From: a virus
Taxonomy: Duplodnaviria; Heunggongvirae; Uroviricota; Caudoviricetes
Reading direction: 5' to 3' (one strand)
Length of the DNA stretch: 7,203 bases
IMG/VR virus record: IMGVR_UViG_3300018486_000146
Each line of letters begins with the position of its first letter. Position 1 is the first letter of the stretch. Below, piece by piece: positions 1 through 4,959 of the stretch. A program made the position numbers and the translations under genes. A model generated the notes under the pieces. The model saw nothing but the letters and a program-made list of their open reading frames with translations, did not search any database and was not told the origin of the DNA.

Positions 1-22
1 CAGACGTGTGCTCTTCCGATCT
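1..22. other. Illumina TruSeq adapter remnant (CAGACGTGTGCTCTTCCGATCT), a library artefact and not biological sequence
   Basis: Bases 1-22 are the exact reverse complement of AGATCGGAAGAGCACACGTCTG, the start of the TruSeq read-through adapter, as recalled from memory. Confidence 0.85.
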
Positions 23-119
23 CTTTATCCGGTTGTGTGGCCTCCAGCGCCAGACTTCCTGGGCAGCGCATCCATCGATGCGCTGATGATGGAGAAAGTT
101 GTGCGTGAACGTCTGGCAT
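23..119 (-). CDS. 5' part of a further early-left gene, truncated by the window edge and adapter; unknown product, possibly a PD-(D/E)XK/Cas4-like nuclease
   Basis: ATG at 119..117 lies 2 nt after the TAA of the 300-aa gene and is preceded by GGAGGG with a 6-nt spacer. The frame stays open to the adapter boundary and reads [32 protein letters not shown]. The SxSxxxRWxxCPGS pattern recalls the N-terminus of Cas4/RecB-like phage nucleases, but the fragment is too short to be sure. Confidence 0.4.
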
Positions 120-121
120 GA

Positions 122-1024
122 TTAACCCTCCAGTGCTTTTTCAGCCAGGGTGATTACTTCAGCGAGATTTTCATCCGTTACTTCACCAAGTTTCCTGGCT
201 CCCTGTTTTTCCAGAATTGCAATAGCTTCTGCCCGGTAACCCCCTTTTGCTAACTGGAGGATCAACCCTTCAGCTTGTTTGCGTAGTGCCGCGAAATCAA
301 TTGTATGGTCATCTTTGGCGTCATTATTCTGGCTGGAATTTGCTGCGTCTCTGCGTGCAAATTCTTCCTGCAGCTGAAGGTACTCAACACGGTTGATCTC
401 GATATGGCCTTTTTTCAGCATCTCGTTCAACTTGCGTAAGGTGTGGAGTTCACTGGCTGCTGTGCCGGATACATTTTTGACGTAAAACGGCCCCGTGCGT
501 TCTCCATCCTTGTTACTGGCCTTTTTCGGCTTAACTTCATCACGCCCATCCGCAGGTGCATCAAGTAGCTGCTCGGCAAAAGCACGTCGTTCGCCGATGG
601 TTGGCAGGTCGTCCCAGAACTTAAGGATGTTACGGGACAGGTCCAGGAGAGCAGGTTTAAGCAGCGCCCTGGCTCGTTTGACGCCCTGCAATGCGCTGTC
701 GAGAGCATCAATCTGAACTACTCGTTTATCGCCTTCAGCATCACGGTAGGCAACAGCACGTTGCAGCATGTCTTCTGTGATAGGGGTGGCTACCGGGTAG
801 AAACCAGCCAGTGCGATAACGTCGCTGAACTCCAGATCATCCAGTGTCATTGCCGCTGACATATTTTCAGTTTCAGTTGCTGTATCCCGACATTCCTGCA
901 CTCGTGAAATCGTGTCAGGATGCATAACAATGCCTGATGCCATTGTGCGGATAAGACGTTCAAGCAGCGCATTATGTTGTGCCAGAAGTTGATTATTAAG
1001 TTCTAGACTGGTTTCTAAACTCAT
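122..1024 (-). CDS. Hypothetical early-left protein, 300 aa, function unknown
   Basis: Long ORF with an ATG start and a GAGGA Shine-Dalgarno 7 nt upstream. Its ATG overlaps the TGA of the upstream small ORF (ATGA coupling). The protein is predicted helix-rich, has an acidic C-terminal half and is not low-complexity. No family recognised by eye. Confidence 0.8.
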
Positions 1025-1170
1025 ACTGTGGTCCTCGCTACAAGGAGAATGAAAGTGATGATCAGACCGAGCGCAGTGGCAACGGCCAGACCGGTCATCA
1101 AATCGAAGTTTTTACGGCGATAACGGAGAACATCGCGCCCCGTCAGTCGATGGATGTGTTCAGGTTTCAT
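1021..1170 (-). CDS. Small membrane protein, 49 aa with one C-terminal transmembrane helix; possible kil-like or host-toxic early protein
   Basis: ATG at 1170 is preceded by AAGGA with a 9-nt spacer. Alternative in-frame starts are ATG 1191 and GTG 1203 (the ORF-track start). The C-terminus LMTGLAVATALGLIITFILLVA is hydrophobic. The stop overlaps the start of the 300-aa gene. Confidence 0.6.
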   Translation of the reverse strand: MKPEHIHRLTGRDVLRYRRKNFDLMTGLAVATALGLIITFILLVARTTV

Positions 1171-1227
1171 CGGTTGTATTCCTTTTTTCATATCGGGGAG
1201 CACGCTGTTGCGAGTGCGCTTTCAGAC

Positions 1228-1255
1228 ATAAAAAAGCCCGTCACGTGAGGCGGGC
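1228..1255 (-). terminator. Intrinsic terminator on the minus strand, in a tL1-like position
   Basis: On the minus strand the sequence reads GCCCG-CC-TCACGTGA-CGGGC followed by TTTTTTAT: a GC-rich stem then a U6 tract. On the plus strand the A-run precedes the hairpin, so it is unidirectional. It sits between the Cys-rich ORF and the downstream early-left genes. Confidence 0.55.
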
Positions 1256-1286: not shown

Positions 1287-1481
1287 TCAGTTGGTATTGT
1301 GCGTACGTGGTACCACAAGGTTGAAGCGGACACGCCAGTGCGTTGCAATGGTATGCAGGAAAGCACCACATCCAGGGCAGTGCTCATAACATTCGTTGAT
1401 TTGGTATCGTTTTGGCTTTGGTGTCAGAAGCTGTGTTTGGCAAGCAGGGCATTCACCTTTGAGCGGTTTATACGTTTTCAC
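1287..1481 (-). CDS. Small Cys-rich protein, 64 aa, putative zinc ribbon (CPAC ... CYEHCPGC)
   Basis: GTG start at 1481 preceded by GAGGA with a 6-nt spacer. Five cysteines in a CxxC...CxxxCxxC arrangement. It is the first ORF downstream of the putative pL and is followed about 30 nt later by the terminator. Only 64 aa with a GTG start, so moderate confidence. Confidence 0.45.
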   Translation of the reverse strand: MKTYKPLKGECPACQTQLLTPKPKRYQINECYEHCPGCGAFLHTIATHWRVRFNLVVPRTHNTN

Positions 1482-1648: not shown

Positions 1649-1677
1649 AAGATACAATTTGAGTTGTATTGTGTAAA
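1649..1677 (-). promoter_or_regulatory. Candidate pL-like leftward promoter (-35 TTTACA, 17-bp spacer, -10 TATCTT) overlapping the left operator
   Basis: Read on the minus strand: TTTACA (plus 1677..1672), 17 nt, TATCTT (plus 1654..1649). The -10 is weak, and the transcription start is not determinable from sequence alone. Confidence 0.3.
1654..1667. promoter_or_regulatory. Candidate left operator: 14-bp 434-type site ACAATTTGAGTTGT
   Basis: Matches ACAA-N6-TTGT, the operator pattern of phage 434-family repressors. Its flank (TTGTATT followed by a -35-like hexamer on the minus strand) parallels the OR-A site at 2475-2488. Confidence 0.5.
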
Positions 1678-1803: not shown

Positions 1804-2427
1804 CTAACGTTTACGGCGGTAAATACGGTGTTCGATCATTACACCTATGATCTGTAAGTTCATATCTGCACTACGAAAAATAGGGTAATCAGGATTTAGG
1901 GGGATTAATTCAAAGTCGTCGATGCCGATTCCTAATGGACGGTATTTTTTAAATGTAGCTTCGTGGCCGTCGTTTTTGGCGACAACAAACTCCCCTGGTG
2001 CAGGACATAGATCAGGATCGATGATAACAATGTCTCCTTCTTTAAACTCTGGTTGCATGCTGTCGCCATCGATACGTAATGCGAAGCATGTTTCTGGAAT
2101 GTCAGAGTCTGCCAAAATATATTCAAATTCCCCTGTCAGATCTGTTATGTCTCTTGCTTCTGTAAGCTCTCCTGCCTGAACGTAACTTAATATAGGTATG
2201 CGTCTGGTACTTATCTCCGCGAGAGGCATAATATTTTTACCGTTCAGTAGCCAGTCTGGGCTACATTTCAAGGCCTTAGCCAGATCCAGAAGATTGCGTG
2301 GCTTTCTGGTTCGTCCACTTTCGATGGATTCTATGGATTGTTGGCTAACCCCTGCAGAATTCGCTACTTCCACTTGAGTCATTCCTAATTCCAAACGACG
2401 TGCTTTAAAACGGGCTGCGAGAGACAT
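1804..2427 (-). CDS. cI: cI-type prophage repressor: N-terminal XRE/434-like HTH plus C-terminal LexA-like S24 autopeptidase domain
   Basis: The HTH region (MTQVEVANSAGVSQQSIESIESGRTRKPRNLLDLAKALKCSPDWLLNGK) aligns with the phage 434 repressor DNA-binding domain as recalled. The C-terminal domain carries an Ala-Gly cleavage site (VQAGEL), a GDSM serine motif and a downstream lysine (FKKY), typical of RecA-stimulated autocleavage. Start set at ATG 2427 (AAGGA 8 nt upstream), not the ORF-track start at 2478, which falls inside the operator region. Confidence 0.93.
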   Translation of the reverse strand: MSLAARFKARRLELGMTQVEVANSAGVSQQSIESIESGRTRKPRNLLDLAKALKCSPDWLLNGKNIMPLAEISTRRIPILSYVQAGELTEARDITDLTGEFEYILADSDIPETCFALRIDGDSMQPEFKEGDIVIIDPDLCPAPGEFVVAKNDGHEATFKKYRPLGIGIDDFELIPLNPDYPIFRSADMNLQIIGVMIEHRIYRRKR

Positions 2428-2450
2428 GGGATTAGTCCTTCTGGGTTGTA

Positions 2451-2472
2451 TTAATGTGTATCCCCACATTAA
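2451..2472. promoter_or_regulatory. 22-bp inverted repeat TTAATGTG-N6-CACATTAA in the cI-proximal part of the switch; unassigned protein-binding site
   Basis: Perfect 8-bp arms with a 6-bp spacer, 25-45 bp upstream of the cI start codon. It differs from the ACAA-N6-TTGT operators. A related AATGTGG / CCACAAATGTGG motif occurs at 1678-1689 near the left operator. Confidence 0.4.
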
Positions 2473-2474
2473 AA

Positions 2475-2488
2475 ACAATTTTTGTTGT
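2475..2488. promoter_or_regulatory. Right operator site OR-A (ACAATTTTTGTTGT), 434-type
   Basis: Exact ACAA-N6-TTGT match, immediately upstream of the -35 TTGACA of the rightward promoter. Confidence 0.5.
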
Positions 2489-2490
2489 AT

Positions 2491-2520
2491 TTGACAAACC
2501 TCGTTTGTTGTTGCTAAATA
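2491..2520 (+). promoter_or_regulatory. pR-like rightward promoter for cro and the primase-helicase (-35 TTGACA, 17-bp spacer, -10 CTAAAT/TAAATA)
   Basis: Consensus -35 TTGACA at 2491-2496; -10-like hexamer at 2514-2520; about 25 nt upstream of the cro ATG. Operator sites overlap it. Confidence 0.5.
2494..2508. promoter_or_regulatory. Right operator site OR-B (ACAAAC-CTC-GTTTGT), a perfect inverted repeat overlapping the pR -35/spacer
   Basis: Perfect 6-bp arms around a 3-bp centre. ACAA/TTGT ends as in 434 operators, but 15 bp long rather than 14. Confidence 0.45.
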
Positions 2521-2533
2521 CCACTAAAATTGT
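2520..2533. promoter_or_regulatory. Right operator site OR-C (ACCACTAAAATTGT), a degenerate 434-type site over the pR start region
   Basis: ACCA-N6-TTGT, one mismatch to the pattern, between the -10 and the cro ribosome-binding site. Confidence 0.35.
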
Positions 2534-2547
2534 ATGAGGTGAAAGCA

Positions 2548-2760
2548 ATGACCTTAGCGACCCGAGTAAAAGAACGACGTAAAGAACTCAAAATGACGCA
2601 AGTTACGTTGGCTGAGCTCACAGGAGTGAGCCAGCAGGCAATAAACAGAATTGAAAGTGGTGTTATTGCTCGGCCACGTTATCTTCTTGAAATGTCTATA
2701 GCATTGGATTGCGACCCTAATTGGCTGTTGTATGGCTCACAAAACGATAAAAAGGCGTAG
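2548..2760 (+). CDS. cro: Cro-like HTH repressor, 70 aa, phage 434 Cro family
   Basis: ATG 2548 with GAGGTG 6 nt upstream (the ORF-track start at 2530 is TTG). The sequence MTLATRVKERRKELKMTQVTLAELTGVSQQAINRIESGVIARPRYLLEMSIALDCDPNWLLYGSQNDKKA aligns along its length with 434 Cro as recalled. Divergent from cI across the operator region. Confidence 0.9.
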   Translation: MTLATRVKERRKELKMTQVTLAELTGVSQQAINRIESGVIARPRYLLEMSIALDCDPNWLLYGSQNDKKA

Positions 2761-2766
2761 CTCCCC

Positions 2767-4959
2767 ATGTCCGATAGCAAACCATGGGGAGCTACGCCTG
2801 ATGAGTGGTTTCATTTCGACCTGGTATTGGGGAGAACTGATCATCTTCTCCCAGTTGTATGTAACCCCAGTGCGACCATATCCCCTGATAGTAAACTGAA
2901 AGCGTTGGGTAAGACGCCGAGTCGCTATAACCGGGACCGCCAGGTCACCGGTATTGCTCAATGGACCGGGCATGTTGTTACTGAGCATGATTTTGCCCGC
3001 TGGTCGAATGAACCGGATTATGGCATCTGCGTGCGTACAGGCCATGGCTGGCTGGCGCTGGACTGTGATAGCGAAGATGAAGACATTCATGCAGATATTC
3101 GCAAAACGCTTGTGCAACTTCTGGGTGAGTTGCCGCCGCGACGCTGGCGAGCAAACAGTAATAAGTGTCTGTATCTGCTGGCCGTTGATGGTGATTTCCG
3201 TAAGCGTATCCATCGCCTGGCGGGGGATATGGGCATTATCGAGTTGCTGGCGAACGGGCAGCAGTTCGTTGCCTGCGGTACGCACAGCAGCGGCGCGCGT
3301 ATTGAATGGGACGGCGGTTTGCCGGATGAACCTCCGGCTATTACTGGTGAGCAGCTTGAAACGCTGTGGCAGCGCCTGGCTGAACAACTCCCTGTGTCGG
3401 TAACCACCGAAGCGGGCAACACGAAGATGCGCGACCGATCAGCATTCACGCCCGGCGCGACGGATGATACAGCTGAATATCTTGATGCCAATGGCTGGAC
3501 GCTGCTGGATGGCGCAAATGGTGAACGATATATCCGCTGTCCGTTTGAAGACGGCCACAGTAGCGGGGGCGATCCAACAAGCACAGTTTATTTTCCTGCG
3601 GGAACCGCGGGCTTTGAGCAGGGGCATTTTAAATGCCTGCATGCCAGTTGTGCGCATCGTGATGACGGAGATTTCCTTAATGCCATCGGGATCCGCAACG
3701 ACGATTTCGAAGATCTGACCAGCACCGAAGTGGCGGAACCTTTACCGCTGCCTGCTTTCGAGCGTGATAAATGGGGGCGTATCGAGGCAACAATCAGCAA
3801 CGCAGCCAAAGCAGTAGTACGCCCTGATTTTGTGGACATCGATATTCGCTTTGACCAGTTCCGCGACGAAATCATGTTTGCCCCTGCAGGATCCGGACAA
3901 TGGCGGGCATTCACCGATGCGGATTATGCGCGCCTGCGCATCACGATGGAAAAGCGGGGATTTAAACCTGTTGGTCGTGAACTTATTCGCGATGTGGTGT
4001 TACTTGCAGCCGATGAACAACCATTCGATTCAGCGATCACCTGGCTGAACGGACTGGAGTGGGATGGCGTGCCGCGCATCGAATGTTTCTACCATACGCA
4101 CTTCGGTACAGCCGACACGCCTTATACCCGTGCGGTGTCTATGTACATGTGGACCGCGTTGGCGGGGCGAGTACTGGAGCCAGGCATCAAAGCGGATATG
4201 GTGCCGATCCTCGTTGGTCCGCAGGGCTGCGGTAAGTCTTCCGGAGTGGAGGCACTGAGCCCTGATCCTGCGTTTTTTACTGAAATCTCTTTTGCCGAAA
4301 AAGACGATGATCTCGCTCGAAAAATGCGTGGTCGGCTGGTGGCAGAGATTGGTGAACTGCGCGGACTTAATACCAAAGAGCTGGAGTCAATCAAAGCGTT
4401 TGTGACGCGTACTCACGAAAACTGGATCCCGAAATACCGGGAGTTCGCCACCCAGTTTCCTCGTCGCCTGGTGTTCGTTGGTACCACCAATGAGGACGAA
4501 TTCCTTGCGGACAAGACTGGTAACCGTCGCTGGCTCCCCGTGGAAGTGTCGAAAGTCGACGTGAAAGCGATAAAAAGAGATCTCCTTTTACTTTGGGCTG
4601 AGGCTCGTGAGGTGTTTCAGCGTCTGGGGGGTATCCAGTTCCGTGAGGCTGAACAACTGGCAGCGAGTGTCCATGAACAGTACACCATCAAGGATGCTTG
4701 GCTTGAAACGGTAGAGAAATGGCTCGACACGCCAGACCTGATGACTAATGAACTTCCGCGAAATTGCGAATTTTTACGCGCAAGTGATGTTTTGCGTGAT
4801 GCGATTGGGCTAAATCCTGACCGCATCGGAAAACGCGAAGAAATGCGAATTAGTAATGTTTTGCAAAATTGCGGGTATAAGCGTGCCCAAAGGCGAATTG
4901 GGGGGAAAATGACTCGAATTTTTGAGGCGGTGTCCCAACCTGTACCAACCTCAAAATAG
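2767..4959 (+). CDS. Replication initiator: primase-polymerase N-terminal domain, zinc-binding Cys/His cluster, and C-terminal P-loop SF3/D5/VirE-like helicase domain (730 aa)
   Basis: N-terminal DxD motif (LALDCDSEDED) and GTHSSG, consistent with prim-pol. Cys/His cluster CPFEDGH...HFKCLHASCAH. Walker A GPQGCGKSS and an SF3-like motif C (VFVGTTNE). Starts 6 bp after the cro stop. Iterons lie at and after its 3' end. Confidence 0.92.
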   Translation: MSDSKPWGATPDEWFHFDLVLGRTDHLLPVVCNPSATISPDSKLKALGKTPSRYNRDRQVTGIAQWTGHVVTEHDFARWSNEPDYGICVRTGHGWLALDCDSEDEDIHADIRKTLVQLLGELPPRRWRANSNKCLYLLAVDGDFRKRIHRLAGDMGIIELLANGQQFVACGTHSSGARIEWDGGLPDEPPAITGEQLETLWQRLAEQLPVSVTTEAGNTKMRDRSAFTPGATDDTAEYLDANGWTLLDGANGERYIRCPFEDGHSSGGDPTSTVYFPAGTAGFEQGHFKCLHASCAHRDDGDFLNAIGIRNDDFEDLTSTEVAEPLPLPAFERDKWGRIEATISNAAKAVVRPDFVDIDIRFDQFRDEIMFAPAGSGQWRAFTDADYARLRITMEKRGFKPVGRELIRDVVLLAADEQPFDSAITWLNGLEWDGVPRIECFYHTHFGTADTPYTRAVSMYMWTALAGRVLEPGIKADMVPILVGPQGCGKSSGVEALSPDPAFFTEISFAEKDDDLARKMRGRLVAEIGELRGLNTKELESIKAFVTRTHENWIPKYREFATQFPRRLVFVGTTNEDEFLADKTGNRRWLPVEVSKVDVKAIKRDLLLLWAEAREVFQRLGGIQFREAEQLAASVHEQYTIKDAWLETVEKWLDTPDLMTNELPRNCEFLRASDVLRDAIGLNPDRIGKREEMRISNVLQNCGYKRAQRRIGGKMTRIFEAVSQPVPTSK

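What the first reader, a model, noticed from the sequence alone, without database searches (positions are those of the whole stretch)
23..1203. Early-left operon of three translationally coupled genes (small membrane protein, 300-aa unknown, putative nuclease) in the kil/bet/exo position
The small ORF's TGA overlaps the ATG of the 300-aa gene, and the next gene starts 2 nt after the 300-aa stop behind a GGAGGG site, so the three are tightly coupled. The layout parallels lambda kil-gam-bet-exo, and the fragment at 119..23 carries a motif reminiscent of Cas4/RecB-type nuclease N-termini. However, the 300-aa protein does not resemble Red-beta, RecT, Erf or Sak as far as I can tell by eye. It could be an unrecognised annealing protein, a nuclease partner or inhibitor, or an anti-defence factor; early-left regions are known hotspots for host-takeover and anti-restriction genes.
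Basis: partly seen in the sequence, partly recalled or inferred. Interest (0 to 1): 0.55.

Follow-up and report, generated by a model that had tools for sequence, protein, structure and literature searches.

The report
Helper protein beside a phage nuclease
The three genes are real and begin the known nuclease, DNA-binding protein and polymerase operon of a common E. coli prophage, and the unknown 300-aa protein belongs to an uncharacterised family that sits just upstream of this nuclease in many phages.

Summary
A 49-aa tail-anchored membrane protein (1170..1021, minus strand) overlaps by ATGA a 300-aa gene (1024..122). Two bases after that gene's stop comes the start of a DUF2800 Cas4/RecB-like nuclease, cut at base 23 by an Illumina adapter (bases 1-22).

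The window is a common E. coli prophage. The operon continues as DUF2800, DUF2815 (a T7 gp2.5-like SSB/annealase), Nmad5, PolA, VRR-NUC, SNF2 helicase, xis and int. This is the published duf2800-gp2.5-polA module, not a lambda kil-gam-bet-exo set. The annealase role is already filled by DUF2815.

The 300-aa protein has no Pfam, NCBIfam, PDB or informative fold match. It is modular:
- an N-terminal helix;
- a helical domain linked, through intermediates only, to the YdfE_C region of lambdoid "exonuclease VIII-like" proteins;
- a "GPFY" module also found inside those exonucleases (hhalign 97%);
- a C-terminal three-helix bundle homologous to small proteins (phrog_408 group) encoded directly upstream of DUF2800 in Staphylococcus, Streptococcus, Listeria and Bacteroides phages.

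My best reading (about 0.45) is a non-catalytic adaptor or regulator of the DUF2800 nuclease. Function is inferred, not shown. Interest is moderate.

The parts
23..119 (-). First 32 codons of a DUF2800 (Cas4/RecB-like PD-(D/E)XK) nuclease gene, including Cys19 of the presumed 4-Cys cluster. It is truncated by the adapter at bases 1-22.
   Evidence: PF10926 E 9.6e-9 and phrog_69 exonuclease. The full 433-aa protein in L002 scores PF10926 2.7e-109 and PDDEXK_1 5e-10.
122..1024 (-). 300-aa acidic (pI 5.1), non-enzymatic-looking modular protein (phrog_6784). Proposed accessory or adaptor of the DUF2800 nuclease.
   Evidence: It is always immediately upstream of DUF2800.
938..1024 (-). N-terminal helix (aa 1-29, 'MSLE..L..N..LL'), followed by a disordered linker (aa 37-55).
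   Evidence: AF2 model helix 3-29, with pLDDT<50 for 37-55. The same N-terminal helix motif occurs in minimal family members and in the Staphylococcus phage 120-aa protein.
530..853 (-). Central all-helical domain (aa 58-165) with a conserved W137 / ERRxFAE motif. It is related, through intermediates, to the YdfE_C region of lambdoid exonuclease-VIII-like proteins.
   Evidence: pLDDT about 95. hhalign to P0188/P0185 gives 90.7%, E 1.2e-6; P0188 to the Tritos exonuclease N-terminus gives 99%; the direct comparison gives only 0.2%. P0188 carries PF27430 and PF27432.
359..502 (-). 'GPFY...EI.K.EYLQL' module (aa 175-222; beta-hairpin, helix, strand, helix). It is optional and positionally shuffled within the family, and also occurs inside exonuclease-VIII-like proteins.
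   Evidence: fold; shuffling or absence; BLASTP E 3e-4; phrog_2082/20376 'exonuclease' hits at positions 370-441; hhalign 97.3%, E 1.6e-11.
125..298 (-). C-terminal three-helix bundle (aa 243-300, 'LAKGGYR.EAV.IL..FGAKKLG.V'). This is the conserved core shared with the phrog_408-group small proteins encoded upstream of DUF2800 in many phages.
   Evidence: phrog_408 E 3.3e-5, hit by 17/23 family members with best E 2.8e-8. hhalign 87%, E 3.8e-6. Neighbours in other phages.
1021..1170 (-). 49-aa tail-anchored small membrane protein (phrog_11981), first gene of the coupled trio.
   Evidence: Relatives with the RLTGxD motif plus a C-terminal TM helix lie upstream of the p300-like gene in Pluralibacter, Serratia and Yersinia phage YeP5.
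1229..1255 (-). Terminator-like hairpin (GCCCG / 10-nt loop / CGGGC) plus a U6 tract in the operon leader, 58 nt before the 49-aa gene.
   Evidence: The hairpin plus U-tract is kept at the same place with different stem or loop sequences in phage 606R2, L003, L006 and L007.
1287..1481 (-). 64-aa CxxC...CxxC zinc-ribbon ORF between the early-left promoter and the hairpin. It lies in a variable region that is absent from phage 606R2.
   Evidence: weak zinc-ribbon hits. Called as a gene in one assembly (L027); not annotated by RefSeq. Homology to 606R2 ends at 1283.
1649..1677 (-). Probable early-left promoter (TTTACA-17-TATCTT) with the operator ATACAACTCAAATTGTAT (1652-1669) in its spacer.
   Evidence: promoter scan; on its own not above chance; 3 operator copies in the window against 0.03 expected, the other two at 2473-2490 and 2518-2535 between the repressor and cro genes.

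Best explanation
The region is the promoter-proximal part of the early-left replication/recombination operon of a temperate E. coli myovirus.

Shown or directly supported:
- Transcription probably starts at the operator-bearing promoter at 1677..1649. It passes a zinc-ribbon ORF and a conserved terminator-like hairpin.
- It then reads a translationally coupled trio: a 49-aa tail-anchored membrane protein, the 300-aa protein, and a DUF2800 Cas4/RecB-like end-resection nuclease.
- Downstream come a gp2.5-like SSB/annealase (DUF2815), PolA, VRR-NUC and an SNF2 helicase.
- The conserved core of the 300-aa protein family is an N-terminal helix, a disordered charged linker and a C-terminal three-helix bundle.

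Inferred:
- The 300-aa protein is a non-catalytic accessory subunit (adaptor or regulator) of the DUF2800 nuclease.
- The N-terminal helix oligomerises. The C-terminal bundle docks on the nuclease, or on the matching acidic C-terminal tails that the nuclease and the SSB both carry.
- The enterobacterial version has added two further modules that otherwise occur in the non-catalytic N-terminal halves of lambdoid 'exonuclease VIII-like' proteins. These may bind DNA ends or a host factor.
- The net effect would be to couple or time end resection with SSB/annealase loading for recombination-dependent replication.
For: 1. Conserved adjacency. A homologue lies immediately upstream of DUF2800-DUF2815-PolA in 8/8 enterobacterial genome loci, in Hamiltonella phage APSE-1 (P53 overlapping P51) and in Yersinia phage YeP5.
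2. Tight coupling. The gap is 2 nt with a strong SD here, a 4-nt overlap in the Staphylococcus phage and 1 nt in the Listeria phage.
3. The C-terminal domain is homologous to the small gene upstream of DUF2800 across phyla:
   - Staphylococcus phiSa2wa, 120 aa, phrog_408 E 4e-36;
   - Streptococcus Javan630, 78 aa, E 1.9e-24;
   - Bacteroides BF503P2, 141 aa, E 3e-10;
   - Listeria LWP01, 214 aa, E 2.5e-9.
   17/23 p300-family members hit phrog_408, and hhalign gives 87%, E 3.8e-6.
4. Rosetta-stone-type links to nucleases. The GPFY module recurs inside an 823-aa exonuclease-VIII-like protein that has a DEDD exonuclease domain (hhalign 97.3%). The central domain is linked through the Cedecea proteins P0185/P0188 to the YdfE-type N-terminus of the same proteins.
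5. No catalytic signature. Only L24, L64, W137, R146 and L271 are invariant or nearly so across the family. The protein is mostly helical with long disordered linkers.
6. The annealase and SSB role is already filled by DUF2815 (PMC5686142, PMC2896510).
7. The nuclease and the SSB carry co-varying acidic tails in 9 of 11 modules compared, which implies a shared docking partner.
Against: - There is no direct evidence of any physical interaction, and complex prediction was not possible with these tools.
- DUF2800 occurs in 1766 phage records, but clear full-length p300 relatives occur in only 19. Some modules (Ruegeria V7, BcepNY3) show no detectable partner gene. The protein is therefore not universally required.
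- By T7 precedent, the receptor of the acidic tails could equally be the polymerase or the helicase.
- The C-terminal bundle is not markedly basic (pI 5.3).
- The link from the central domain to the exonuclease N-termini is only transitive; the direct hhalign gives 0.2%.
- The protein evolves faster than its neighbours (48-63% identity against 74-93%). That also fits a host-interaction or anti-defence role.
Confidence: 0.45

Rival explanations
1. Host-takeover or anti-defence factor. One version is a Gam/Abc-like modulator of RecBCD. Another is a decoy that shields the phage nuclease or its DNA ends from host sensors. On this view the gene sits next to the nuclease only because early-left regions collect such genes.
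For: - It occupies the promoter-proximal early-left position.
- It is acidic, with pI 5.1 and a central domain of pI 4.6.
- It evolves faster than the neighbouring enzymes and shuffles its domains.
- DUF2800 nucleases are known triggers of a retron defence (bioRxiv 10.64898/2026.07.14.737667), so a masking partner is conceivable.
Against: - The core domain is paired with DUF2800 in Gram-positive, Bacteroides and proteobacterial phages whose hosts differ in RecBCD/AddAB and in defence repertoire.
- Two of its modules occur fused to exonuclease domains.
- There is no similarity to Gam, Abc or Ocr.
Confidence: 0.2
2. Safety catch for the nuclease. The protein would be a stoichiometric inhibitor or timer that keeps DUF2800 inactive until replication intermediates appear. 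Translational coupling would ensure it is made first.
For: - Upstream position and coupling.
- Conserved pairing with DUF2800.
- Expression of a DUF2800 protein alone is enough to trigger host toxicity through a retron.
Against: This reading cannot be told apart from the adaptor model with the present data. The extra modules shared with exonuclease N-termini suggest recruitment rather than simple inhibition.
Confidence: 0.15
3. Unrecognised single-strand annealing protein.
For: It sits upstream of an exonuclease, as bet and recT sit beside exo and recE. The GPFY module contains a beta-hairpin followed by helices.
Against: - There are no RecT, Erf, Rad52 or Sak matches by sequence.
- The GPFY module is absent from many family members.
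- A gp2.5-like annealase is already present (PMC2896510).
Confidence: 0.04
4. Transcription or antitermination regulator of the early-left operon, or a replication-origin organiser.
For: It is promoter-proximal and lies downstream of a conserved terminator-like hairpin. The C-terminal helix-Gly-helix pattern loosely recalls SAP/HeH DNA-binding motifs (my own reading, untested).
Against: - No HTH or known DNA- or RNA-binding domain was detected.
- Gram-positive relatives sit in the middle of replication modules, not at promoters.
- The prophage already encodes a Prim-Pol/VapE primase-helicase gene in the rightward operon, between cro and Q.
Confidence: 0.06

Closest known systems
duf2800-gp2.5(DUF2815)-polA phage replication/recombination module (Steczkiewicz 2012 PMC3424549; Lopes 2010 PMC2896510; PMC8093625; Enc34 ORF6 PMC5686142)
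   Same: The window's operon is this module: DUF2800 nuclease, DUF2815/Enc34-type SSB, PolA, VRR-NUC and SNF2 helicase in the same order.
   Different: In the papers I read, the module is described without the upstream helical protein. Here, and in many other phages, a fourth gene precedes DUF2800.
Lambda Red (gam-bet-exo) and Rac RecET early-left recombination operons
   Same: Repressor-controlled early-left position, a 5'-end-resection nuclease paired with an annealing protein, and small toxic or membrane genes nearby.
   Different: There is no homology to Gam, Bet, Exo, RecT or Kil. The nuclease is Cas4/RecB-like and the annealase is an OB-fold gp2.5-type protein. The operon also carries a polymerase and a helicase.
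phrog_408-group small proteins (for example the Staphylococcus phage phiSa2wa 120-aa protein WAX25797, and Streptococcus phage Javan630_0016, annotated 'rRNA biogenesis protein rrp5')
   Same: N-terminal helix, charged disordered linker and a C-terminal bundle of about 55 aa with a 'GA.KL' signature. The gene abuts the DUF2800 start.
   Different: They are only 78-214 aa and lack the central helical domain and the GPFY module. Function is unknown and no Pfam family exists.
YdfE / 'exonuclease VIII-like' proteins of lambdoid prophages (for example Escherichia phage Tritos TRITO_27, 823 aa; Pfam YdfE_N PF27430 and YdfE_C PF27432)
   Same: They share the GPFY module (hhalign 97%). Through the Cedecea proteins P0185/P0188 they also share the region corresponding to the p300 central domain. 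Both are early-left genes.
   Different: In those proteins the modules are fused to a DEDD (Rv2179c-like) exonuclease domain. Here they form a separate protein next to a PD-(D/E)XK nuclease. K-12 RecE itself lacks the GPFY module. p300 is not detected by the YdfE Pfam models.
Red-beta C-terminal domain (PDB 6M9K), the exonuclease-docking three-helix bundle
   Different: The match ranks 44th among generic helical bundles, so it is an analogy only and not evidence of homology. Here the bundle sits on a separate protein, not on the annealase.
Hamiltonella phage APSE-1 P53 (phrog_33976)
   Same: It is 307 aa, lies directly upstream of and overlaps the P51 exonuclease (DUF2800), then P50 (gp2.5-like) and P45 (polymerase). 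It shares the central and C-terminal domains.
   Different: It has a different N-terminal part, no GPFY module was detected, and it sits in a podovirus backbone. It is also uncharacterised.

Membership tests
DUF2800 (PF10926) Cas4/RecB-like PD-(D/E)XK nucleases (for the 119..23 fragment) | Match to the family HMM above the curated cut-off | tested here: met
   32-aa fragment: 35.3 bits against a cut-off of 21. Full-length protein in a 99%-identical prophage: E 2.7e-109.
DUF2800 (PF10926) Cas4/RecB-like PD-(D/E)XK nucleases (for the 119..23 fragment) | PD-(D/E)XK catalytic motif, QxxxY motif and a 4-Cys cluster | tested here: met
   Only Cys19 lies in the window. In L002 the protein has D...IHDLKYGK...QLQLY and CRFCKAKAIC, and matches PDDEXK_1 at E 5e-10. 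Nuclease activity itself was not tested.
Single-strand annealing proteins (Red-beta/RecT, Erf, Rad52/Sak, Sak3, Sak4, gp2.5) for the 300-aa protein | Sequence or fold match to one of the SSAP families | tested here: not met
phrog_6784 (uncharacterised phage protein family) | Full-length HMM match | tested here: met
   E 1.5e-179, residues 1-300 against profile positions 1-298.
phrog_408-group 'upstream-of-DUF2800' proteins | C-terminal helical domain of about 55 aa matching the family profile | tested here: met
   phrog_408 E 3.3e-5 for this protein; 17/23 relatives hit it, best E 2.8e-8. hhalign 87%, E 3.8e-6. This is remote but consistent.
phrog_408-group 'upstream-of-DUF2800' proteins | Gene located immediately 5' of a DUF2800 gene on the same strand | tested here: met
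   2-nt gap here. The same arrangement holds in 8/8 related loci, APSE-1, YeP5, and Staphylococcus, Streptococcus and Listeria phages.
phrog_408-group 'upstream-of-DUF2800' proteins | N-terminal helix plus a charged disordered linker | tested here: met
   AF2 helix 3-29 and low-confidence segment 37-55. Alignment with minimal members and the Staphylococcus protein.
YdfE / exonuclease-VIII-like N-terminal region (PF27430, PF27432) | Match to the Pfam YdfE_N or YdfE_C models | tested here: not met
   The precomputed Pfam column is empty for the 300-aa protein. The local Pfam copy lacks these models. Only a transitive link exists through P0188 (hhalign 90.7% then 99%; direct 0.2%).
YdfE / exonuclease-VIII-like N-terminal region (PF27430, PF27432) | Shared GPFY...EI.K.EY module | tested here: met
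   hhalign 97.3%, E 1.6e-11; PHROG 2082/20376 hits; BLASTP E 3e-4.
Lambda Gam / RecBCD inhibitors | Sequence or fold similarity to Gam, or demonstrated RecBCD binding | tested here: not met
   No Pfam or PDB hit. RecBCD binding cannot be tested with these tools.
Kil/KilR-type division inhibitors (for the 49-aa protein) | Match to Kil/KilR families; filamentation on expression | tested here: not met
   No Pfam hit, including none to PF27398 KilR, in the precomputed tables. It matches only phrog_11981, of unknown function. The phenotype cannot be tested here.

The most novel reading that the evidence does not exclude
The phrog_408-type three-helix bundle, of which this 300-aa protein is an expanded enterobacterial form, could be a general and so far unrecognised fourth component of DUF2800-gp2.5-PolA modules. 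It would act as an oligomeric hub that captures the matching, co-evolving acidic C-terminal tails of both the nuclease and the SSB/annealase. This would assemble a resection-annealing complex, doing in trans what the Red-beta C-terminal domain does in lambda. The same module set would have been fused onto lambdoid exonuclease-VIII-like enzymes.
Probability: 0.25. Interest if true: 0.6.

Novelty: new variant of a known kind. Interest (0 to 1): 0.42.

Why it matters
DUF2800-gp2.5-PolA modules occur in at least 1766 sequenced phages. These include Staphylococcus (phiSa2/Triavirus) and Streptococcus phages, Jersey- and Chi-like phages, and very common E. coli prophages. How the nuclease is controlled and coupled to the annealase is unknown.

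A conserved partner gene gives a concrete, testable handle on three questions:
- whether these modules can be turned into recombineering systems;
- what the unexplained N-terminal halves of RecE/YdfE-type exonucleases do;
- how phages manage a nuclease that host retrons sense.

If the protein instead proves to be an anti-host factor, it would be a new one. Either way this window holds a typical copy, not an exceptional one.

Tried and rejected
Searches that gave nothing for the 300-aa and 49-aa proteins:
- Pfam, NCBIfam and PDB sequence searches, with a single sequence and with a profile.
- Pfam on ten distant relatives.
- The afdb50 library was unavailable.
- The search for related loci with the diverse alignment failed for lack of conserved stretches.
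- Rfam found nothing in the window.

Ideas considered and rejected or downgraded:
- Homology to K-12 RecE itself. RecE lacks the GPFY module and shares only residues 278-591 with the Tritos protein.
- A direct match of the central domain to the Tritos-type N-terminus. hhalign gives 0.2% without bridging sequences, so only transitive homology is claimed.
- The leader hairpin judged on folding energy alone. Its z-score is 0.18, so it rests on positional conservation with changed stems.
- The promoter scan alone, which is not above chance. The promoter call rests on the operator statistics.
- Ruegeria V7 gp80, VLCpiS11a gp17/gp18 and ER6 109-aa as partner-family members; no signal was found.
- SETP7 gp41 and VLCpiS11a gp15 show the same three-part architecture, but the scores are weak (5-29%).
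Full report
**What is in the sequence**

On the minus strand, a 49-aa ORF (ATG 1170 to TGA 1021) overlaps by ATGA a 300-aa ORF (1024 to 122). The purely mechanical ORF for the small gene starts at GTG 1203. Two bases after the TAA of the 300-aa ORF, behind GGAGGG, a third gene starts at 119 and runs to base 23. Bases 1-22 are the reverse complement of the Illumina adapter AGATCGGAAGAGCACACGTCTG, and every database match begins at base 22. The third gene is therefore cut by a contig-end artefact. The 49-aa product has a basic N-terminal half and a C-terminal transmembrane helix.

**Where it comes from**

The window is 99% identical over its whole length to prophages in 45 complete E. coli genomes, and parts of it match in 2786 of 5426 genomes. 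Bases 22-1283 are 98.9% identical to three induced myoviruses, vB_EcoM-606R2, 689R2 and 611R5.

In strain 2003-3014 the prophage sits next to yfhL/shoB. The leftward operon there reads:
- 49-aa protein, 300-aa protein, DUF2800 (433 aa), DUF2815, Nmad5;
- one gene on the opposite strand;
- PolA, ANR regulator, DUF4406, VRR-NUC;
- another gene on the opposite strand;
- SNF2/DEAD helicase, excisionase-like HTH, integrase.

This is the duf2800-gp2.5-polA module described by others. DUF2815 is a T7 gp2.5-type SSB with a crystal structure (PMC5686142). The phi12 member has annealing activity in vivo and clusters with the 'recE-like' (DUF2800) gene (PMC2896510). The three-gene module is noted in both Gram-positive and Gram-negative phages (PMC8093625). 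A 2026 preprint shows that a DUF2800 protein resembles the AdnA/RecB resection nucleases and triggers a type IX retron.

**The nuclease call is right**

The 32 codons in the window already pass the Pfam cut-off for DUF2800. The full protein scores E 2.7e-109 and also matches PDDEXK_1. It has the D / HDLK / QLQLY motifs and a Cys19 plus CxxCx5C set.

**Regulation**

An 18-bp palindrome, ATACAA-N6-TTGTAT, occurs three times in the window against 0.03 expected. Two copies lie between the LexA-like repressor gene (1804-2427, minus strand) and cro. One copy lies at 1652-1669, inside the spacer of a sigma70-like promoter on the minus strand (1677..1649). This is the likely early-left promoter.

Between that promoter and the 49-aa gene lie two features. 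The first is an unannotated 64-aa zinc-ribbon ORF (1481..1287). The second is a hairpin followed by U6 (1255-1229). The hairpin plus U-tract is retained 40-97 nt upstream of the small gene in phage 606R2, Pluralibacter and two Serratia prophages, with different stem or loop sequences. So 'early-left operon' is supported, but the operon is much longer than three genes and has a terminator-like element in its leader.

**The 300-aa protein: what it is not**

It has no hit in Pfam, NCBIfam or the PDB, by single sequence or by profile. The newest precomputed Pfam tables are empty for it. It is full-length phrog_6784, of unknown function.

**The 300-aa protein: anatomy**

The model and the alignments show five parts:
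- an N-terminal helix (aa 3-29);
- a disordered linker;
- an all-helical central domain (aa 58-165);
- a small beta-hairpin/helix 'GPFY...EI.K.EYLQL' module (aa 175-222);
- a second linker and a C-terminal three-helix bundle (aa 243-300).

The family is modular. Some members lack the GPFY module. In others that module sits before the central domain. Minimal members of 100-130 aa consist of the N-terminal helix, a linker and the C-terminal bundle only.

**Context is the strongest evidence**

A homologue lies directly upstream of DUF2800-DUF2815-PolA in all eight loci recovered from other species: Pluralibacter, Trabulsiella, Pectobacterium, two Serratia loci, two Mixta loci and Erwinia. The same holds in Hamiltonella phage APSE-1 (P53 overlapping P51) and in Yersinia phage YeP5. 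The protein diverges faster than its neighbours: 48-63% identity, against 74-79% for DUF2800, 89-93% for DUF2815 and 85-90% for PolA.

The C-terminal region also matches phrog_408 (E 3.3e-5 for this protein; 17 of 23 relatives hit it, best E 2.8e-8). I sampled DUF2800 genes from unrelated phages and looked at the upstream gene:

| Phage | Upstream gene | Best match | Position |
|---|---|---|---|
| Staphylococcus phiSa2wa | 120 aa | phrog_408, E 4e-36 | 4-nt overlap with DUF2800 |
| Streptococcus Javan630 | 78 aa | phrog_408, E 1.9e-24 | immediately upstream |
| Bacteroides BF503P2 | 141 aa | phrog_408, E 3e-10 | one short ORF between |
| Listeria LWP01 | 214 aa, two copies of the domain | phrog_408, E 2.5e-9 | 1-nt gap |
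| Chi-like Salmonella ER6 | 138 aa | phrog_7721, with weak hits to phrog_38276 and phrog_3709 | two genes upstream |

A profile-profile comparison of the two sets gives 87% probability, E 3.8e-6. The Staphylococcus protein even shares the N-terminal helix motif and the charged linker. No partner was detectable in Ruegeria V7 or BcepNY3. Jersey-like phages have proteins with the same three-part architecture, but the scores are weak. None of these proteins has a Pfam family.

**Links to exonuclease N-termini**

Two 500-513-aa Cedecea prophage proteins, P0185 and P0188, match the p300 profile over its central and GPFY parts (E about 1e-14 with the A3 profile). Their own N-termini match the N-terminus of the 823-aa 'exonuclease VIII-like' proteins of lambdoid phages, for example Tritos TRITO_27. 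The C-terminal domain of TRITO_27 is a DEDD, Rv2179c-like exonuclease. P0188 carries the new Pfam domains YdfE_N and YdfE_C and sits in an early-left operon: KilR ... P0188, Rrf2, xis, int.

The evidence differs for the two modules:
- GPFY module. TRITO_27 contains it at residues 385-437 (BLASTP E 3e-4). PHROG 'exonuclease' profiles 2082 and 20376 are hit at the same positions by three p300 relatives. hhalign gives 97.3%, E 1.6e-11.
- Central domain. The link is only transitive: 90.7% to P0188/P0185, 99% from those to the Tritos type, but 0.2% directly.

K-12 RecE lacks these modules. Its own N-terminal region is of unknown function, although it enhances linear-linear recombination (PMC11611040).

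**Interpretation**

Each of the three folded modules recurs either fused to, or encoded directly beside, a phage exonuclease. The protein looks non-catalytic, and the annealase/SSB slot is already taken by DUF2815. The most economical reading is therefore an accessory subunit of the DUF2800 nuclease, acting as an adaptor or regulator.

One extra observation fits a docking model. The DUF2800 nuclease and the DUF2815 SSB end in near-identical acidic tails that change together from phage to phage:

| Phage | Nuclease tail | SSB tail |
|---|---|---|
| This prophage | NDFDDVSDDTLTADLI | DDFDDISEGADAEALI |
| YeP5 | ...AESLI | ...AESLI |
| Chi-like ER6 | ...AWDDEDDDEV | ...AWDEDEDWEDEV |
| Ruegeria V7 | ...DDLLG | ...DDLLG |
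| Staphylococcus phiSa2wa | ...EDDFDKL | ...EDDFDEL... |

Matching tails imply a common receptor. By T7 precedent this could be the polymerase or the helicase. The conserved bundle of the upstream protein is another candidate, by analogy with the Red-beta C-terminal bundle that docks on lambda Exo (PMC11611040). From memory, that domain also binds the SSB tail. All of this mechanism is inference. No interaction was tested or could be tested here.

**Alternatives**

The protein's acidity, its rapid divergence and its early-left position also fit an anti-RecBCD or anti-defence role, or a nuclease-masking role. I cannot exclude these. Pairing across hosts with very different defence repertoires argues against a host-specific target.

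**The 49-aa protein**

Relatives with an RLTGxD motif and a C-terminal TM helix precede the p300-like gene in Pluralibacter, Serratia and Yersinia phages. Mixta, Erwinia and APSE-1 have a different small basic protein at that place. Its function is unknown, and the Kil analogy is untested.

**Verdict**

The operon is a known module in a very common prophage. The 300-aa protein is an expanded member of an uncharacterised but widespread family of nuclease-adjacent proteins. This gives a useful, testable lead of moderate interest, not a new kind of system.

Noticed in passing
window 1-22: Reverse complement of the Illumina TruSeq adapter (AGATCGGAAGAGCACACGTCTG) at the contig end. Genome matches start at base 22. 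It truncates the DUF2800 gene and adds false codons (..DKE|IGRAHV).
   Followed up: yes
L002 12233-14098 and loci L011-L014, L019, L021-L024 (outside the window): The DUF2800 nuclease and the DUF2815 SSB of the same phage end in near-identical acidic C-terminal tails that co-vary between phages (for example ...DFDDVS..ADLI / ...DFDDIS..EALI, AESLI/AESLI, DDLLG/DDLLG, AWDDEDDDEV/AWDEDEDWEDEV). This implies a shared docking partner, as with the T7 gp2.5 and gp4 tails. None of the papers I read mentions it.
   Followed up: partly
window 1229-1255 (minus strand): Terminator-like hairpin plus U6 in the leader of the operon, 58 nt before the 49-aa gene. The position is conserved, with altered stem or loop sequences, in phage 606R2, Pluralibacter and Serratia prophages. 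This suggests regulated read-through, analogous to lambda tL1.
   Followed up: partly
window 1287-1481 (minus strand): Unannotated 64-aa CxxC...CxxC zinc-ribbon ORF (GTG start behind GAGGAA) in the 'N position' between the early-left promoter and the hairpin. It has weak zf-IS66/zinc-ribbon hits and was called as a gene in one assembly. The segment 1284-1800 is replaced by other genes in phage 606R2.
   Followed up: partly
window 1652-1669, 2473-2490, 2518-2535: Three copies of the operator-like palindrome ATACAA-N6-TTGTAT (expected 0.03). They define oL and a two-site oR for the LexA-like S24 repressor (1804-2427, minus strand) and cro (2530-2760). Phage 606R2 has different repeats (CTGTAGGGGT x2) at the equivalent place, meaning a different immunity.
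   Followed up: partly
L016 3432-5903 (Escherichia phage Tritos TRITO_27) and L018 (K-12 recE): Proteins annotated 'exonuclease VIII' in many lambdoid prophages are not RecE-type. They carry a C-terminal DEDD Rv2179c-like 3'-5' exonuclease domain (PF16473, E 2e-67) and share only the middle region (about residues 262-625) with Rac RecE, whose nuclease is PD-(D/E)XK.
   Followed up: partly
L008-L011 upstream of the p300-like gene: In Mixta, Erwinia and APSE-1 the small gene preceding the p300-like gene is not the TM protein. It is a conserved basic 47-64-aa protein (motif VRRLR[WY]LRK.D.L.RN...P.TLY) of unknown function.
   Followed up: no
window 2767-4959 (+): 730-aa Prim-Pol/VapE-type primase-helicase directly after cro. 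A variant prophage has a 648-aa form, and the 606R2 version is only 53% identical over the N-terminal 400 residues. The replication-initiation gene is therefore mosaic between otherwise near-identical phages.
   Followed up: no
L002 11540-12181 and L015 2356-3054: An Nmad5 (nucleotide-modification-associated) gene is inserted in the module after DUF2815 in the E. coli prophage, and upstream of DUF2800 in Klebsiella phage VLCpiS11a. It is truncated to 79 aa in one E. coli assembly.
   Followed up: no
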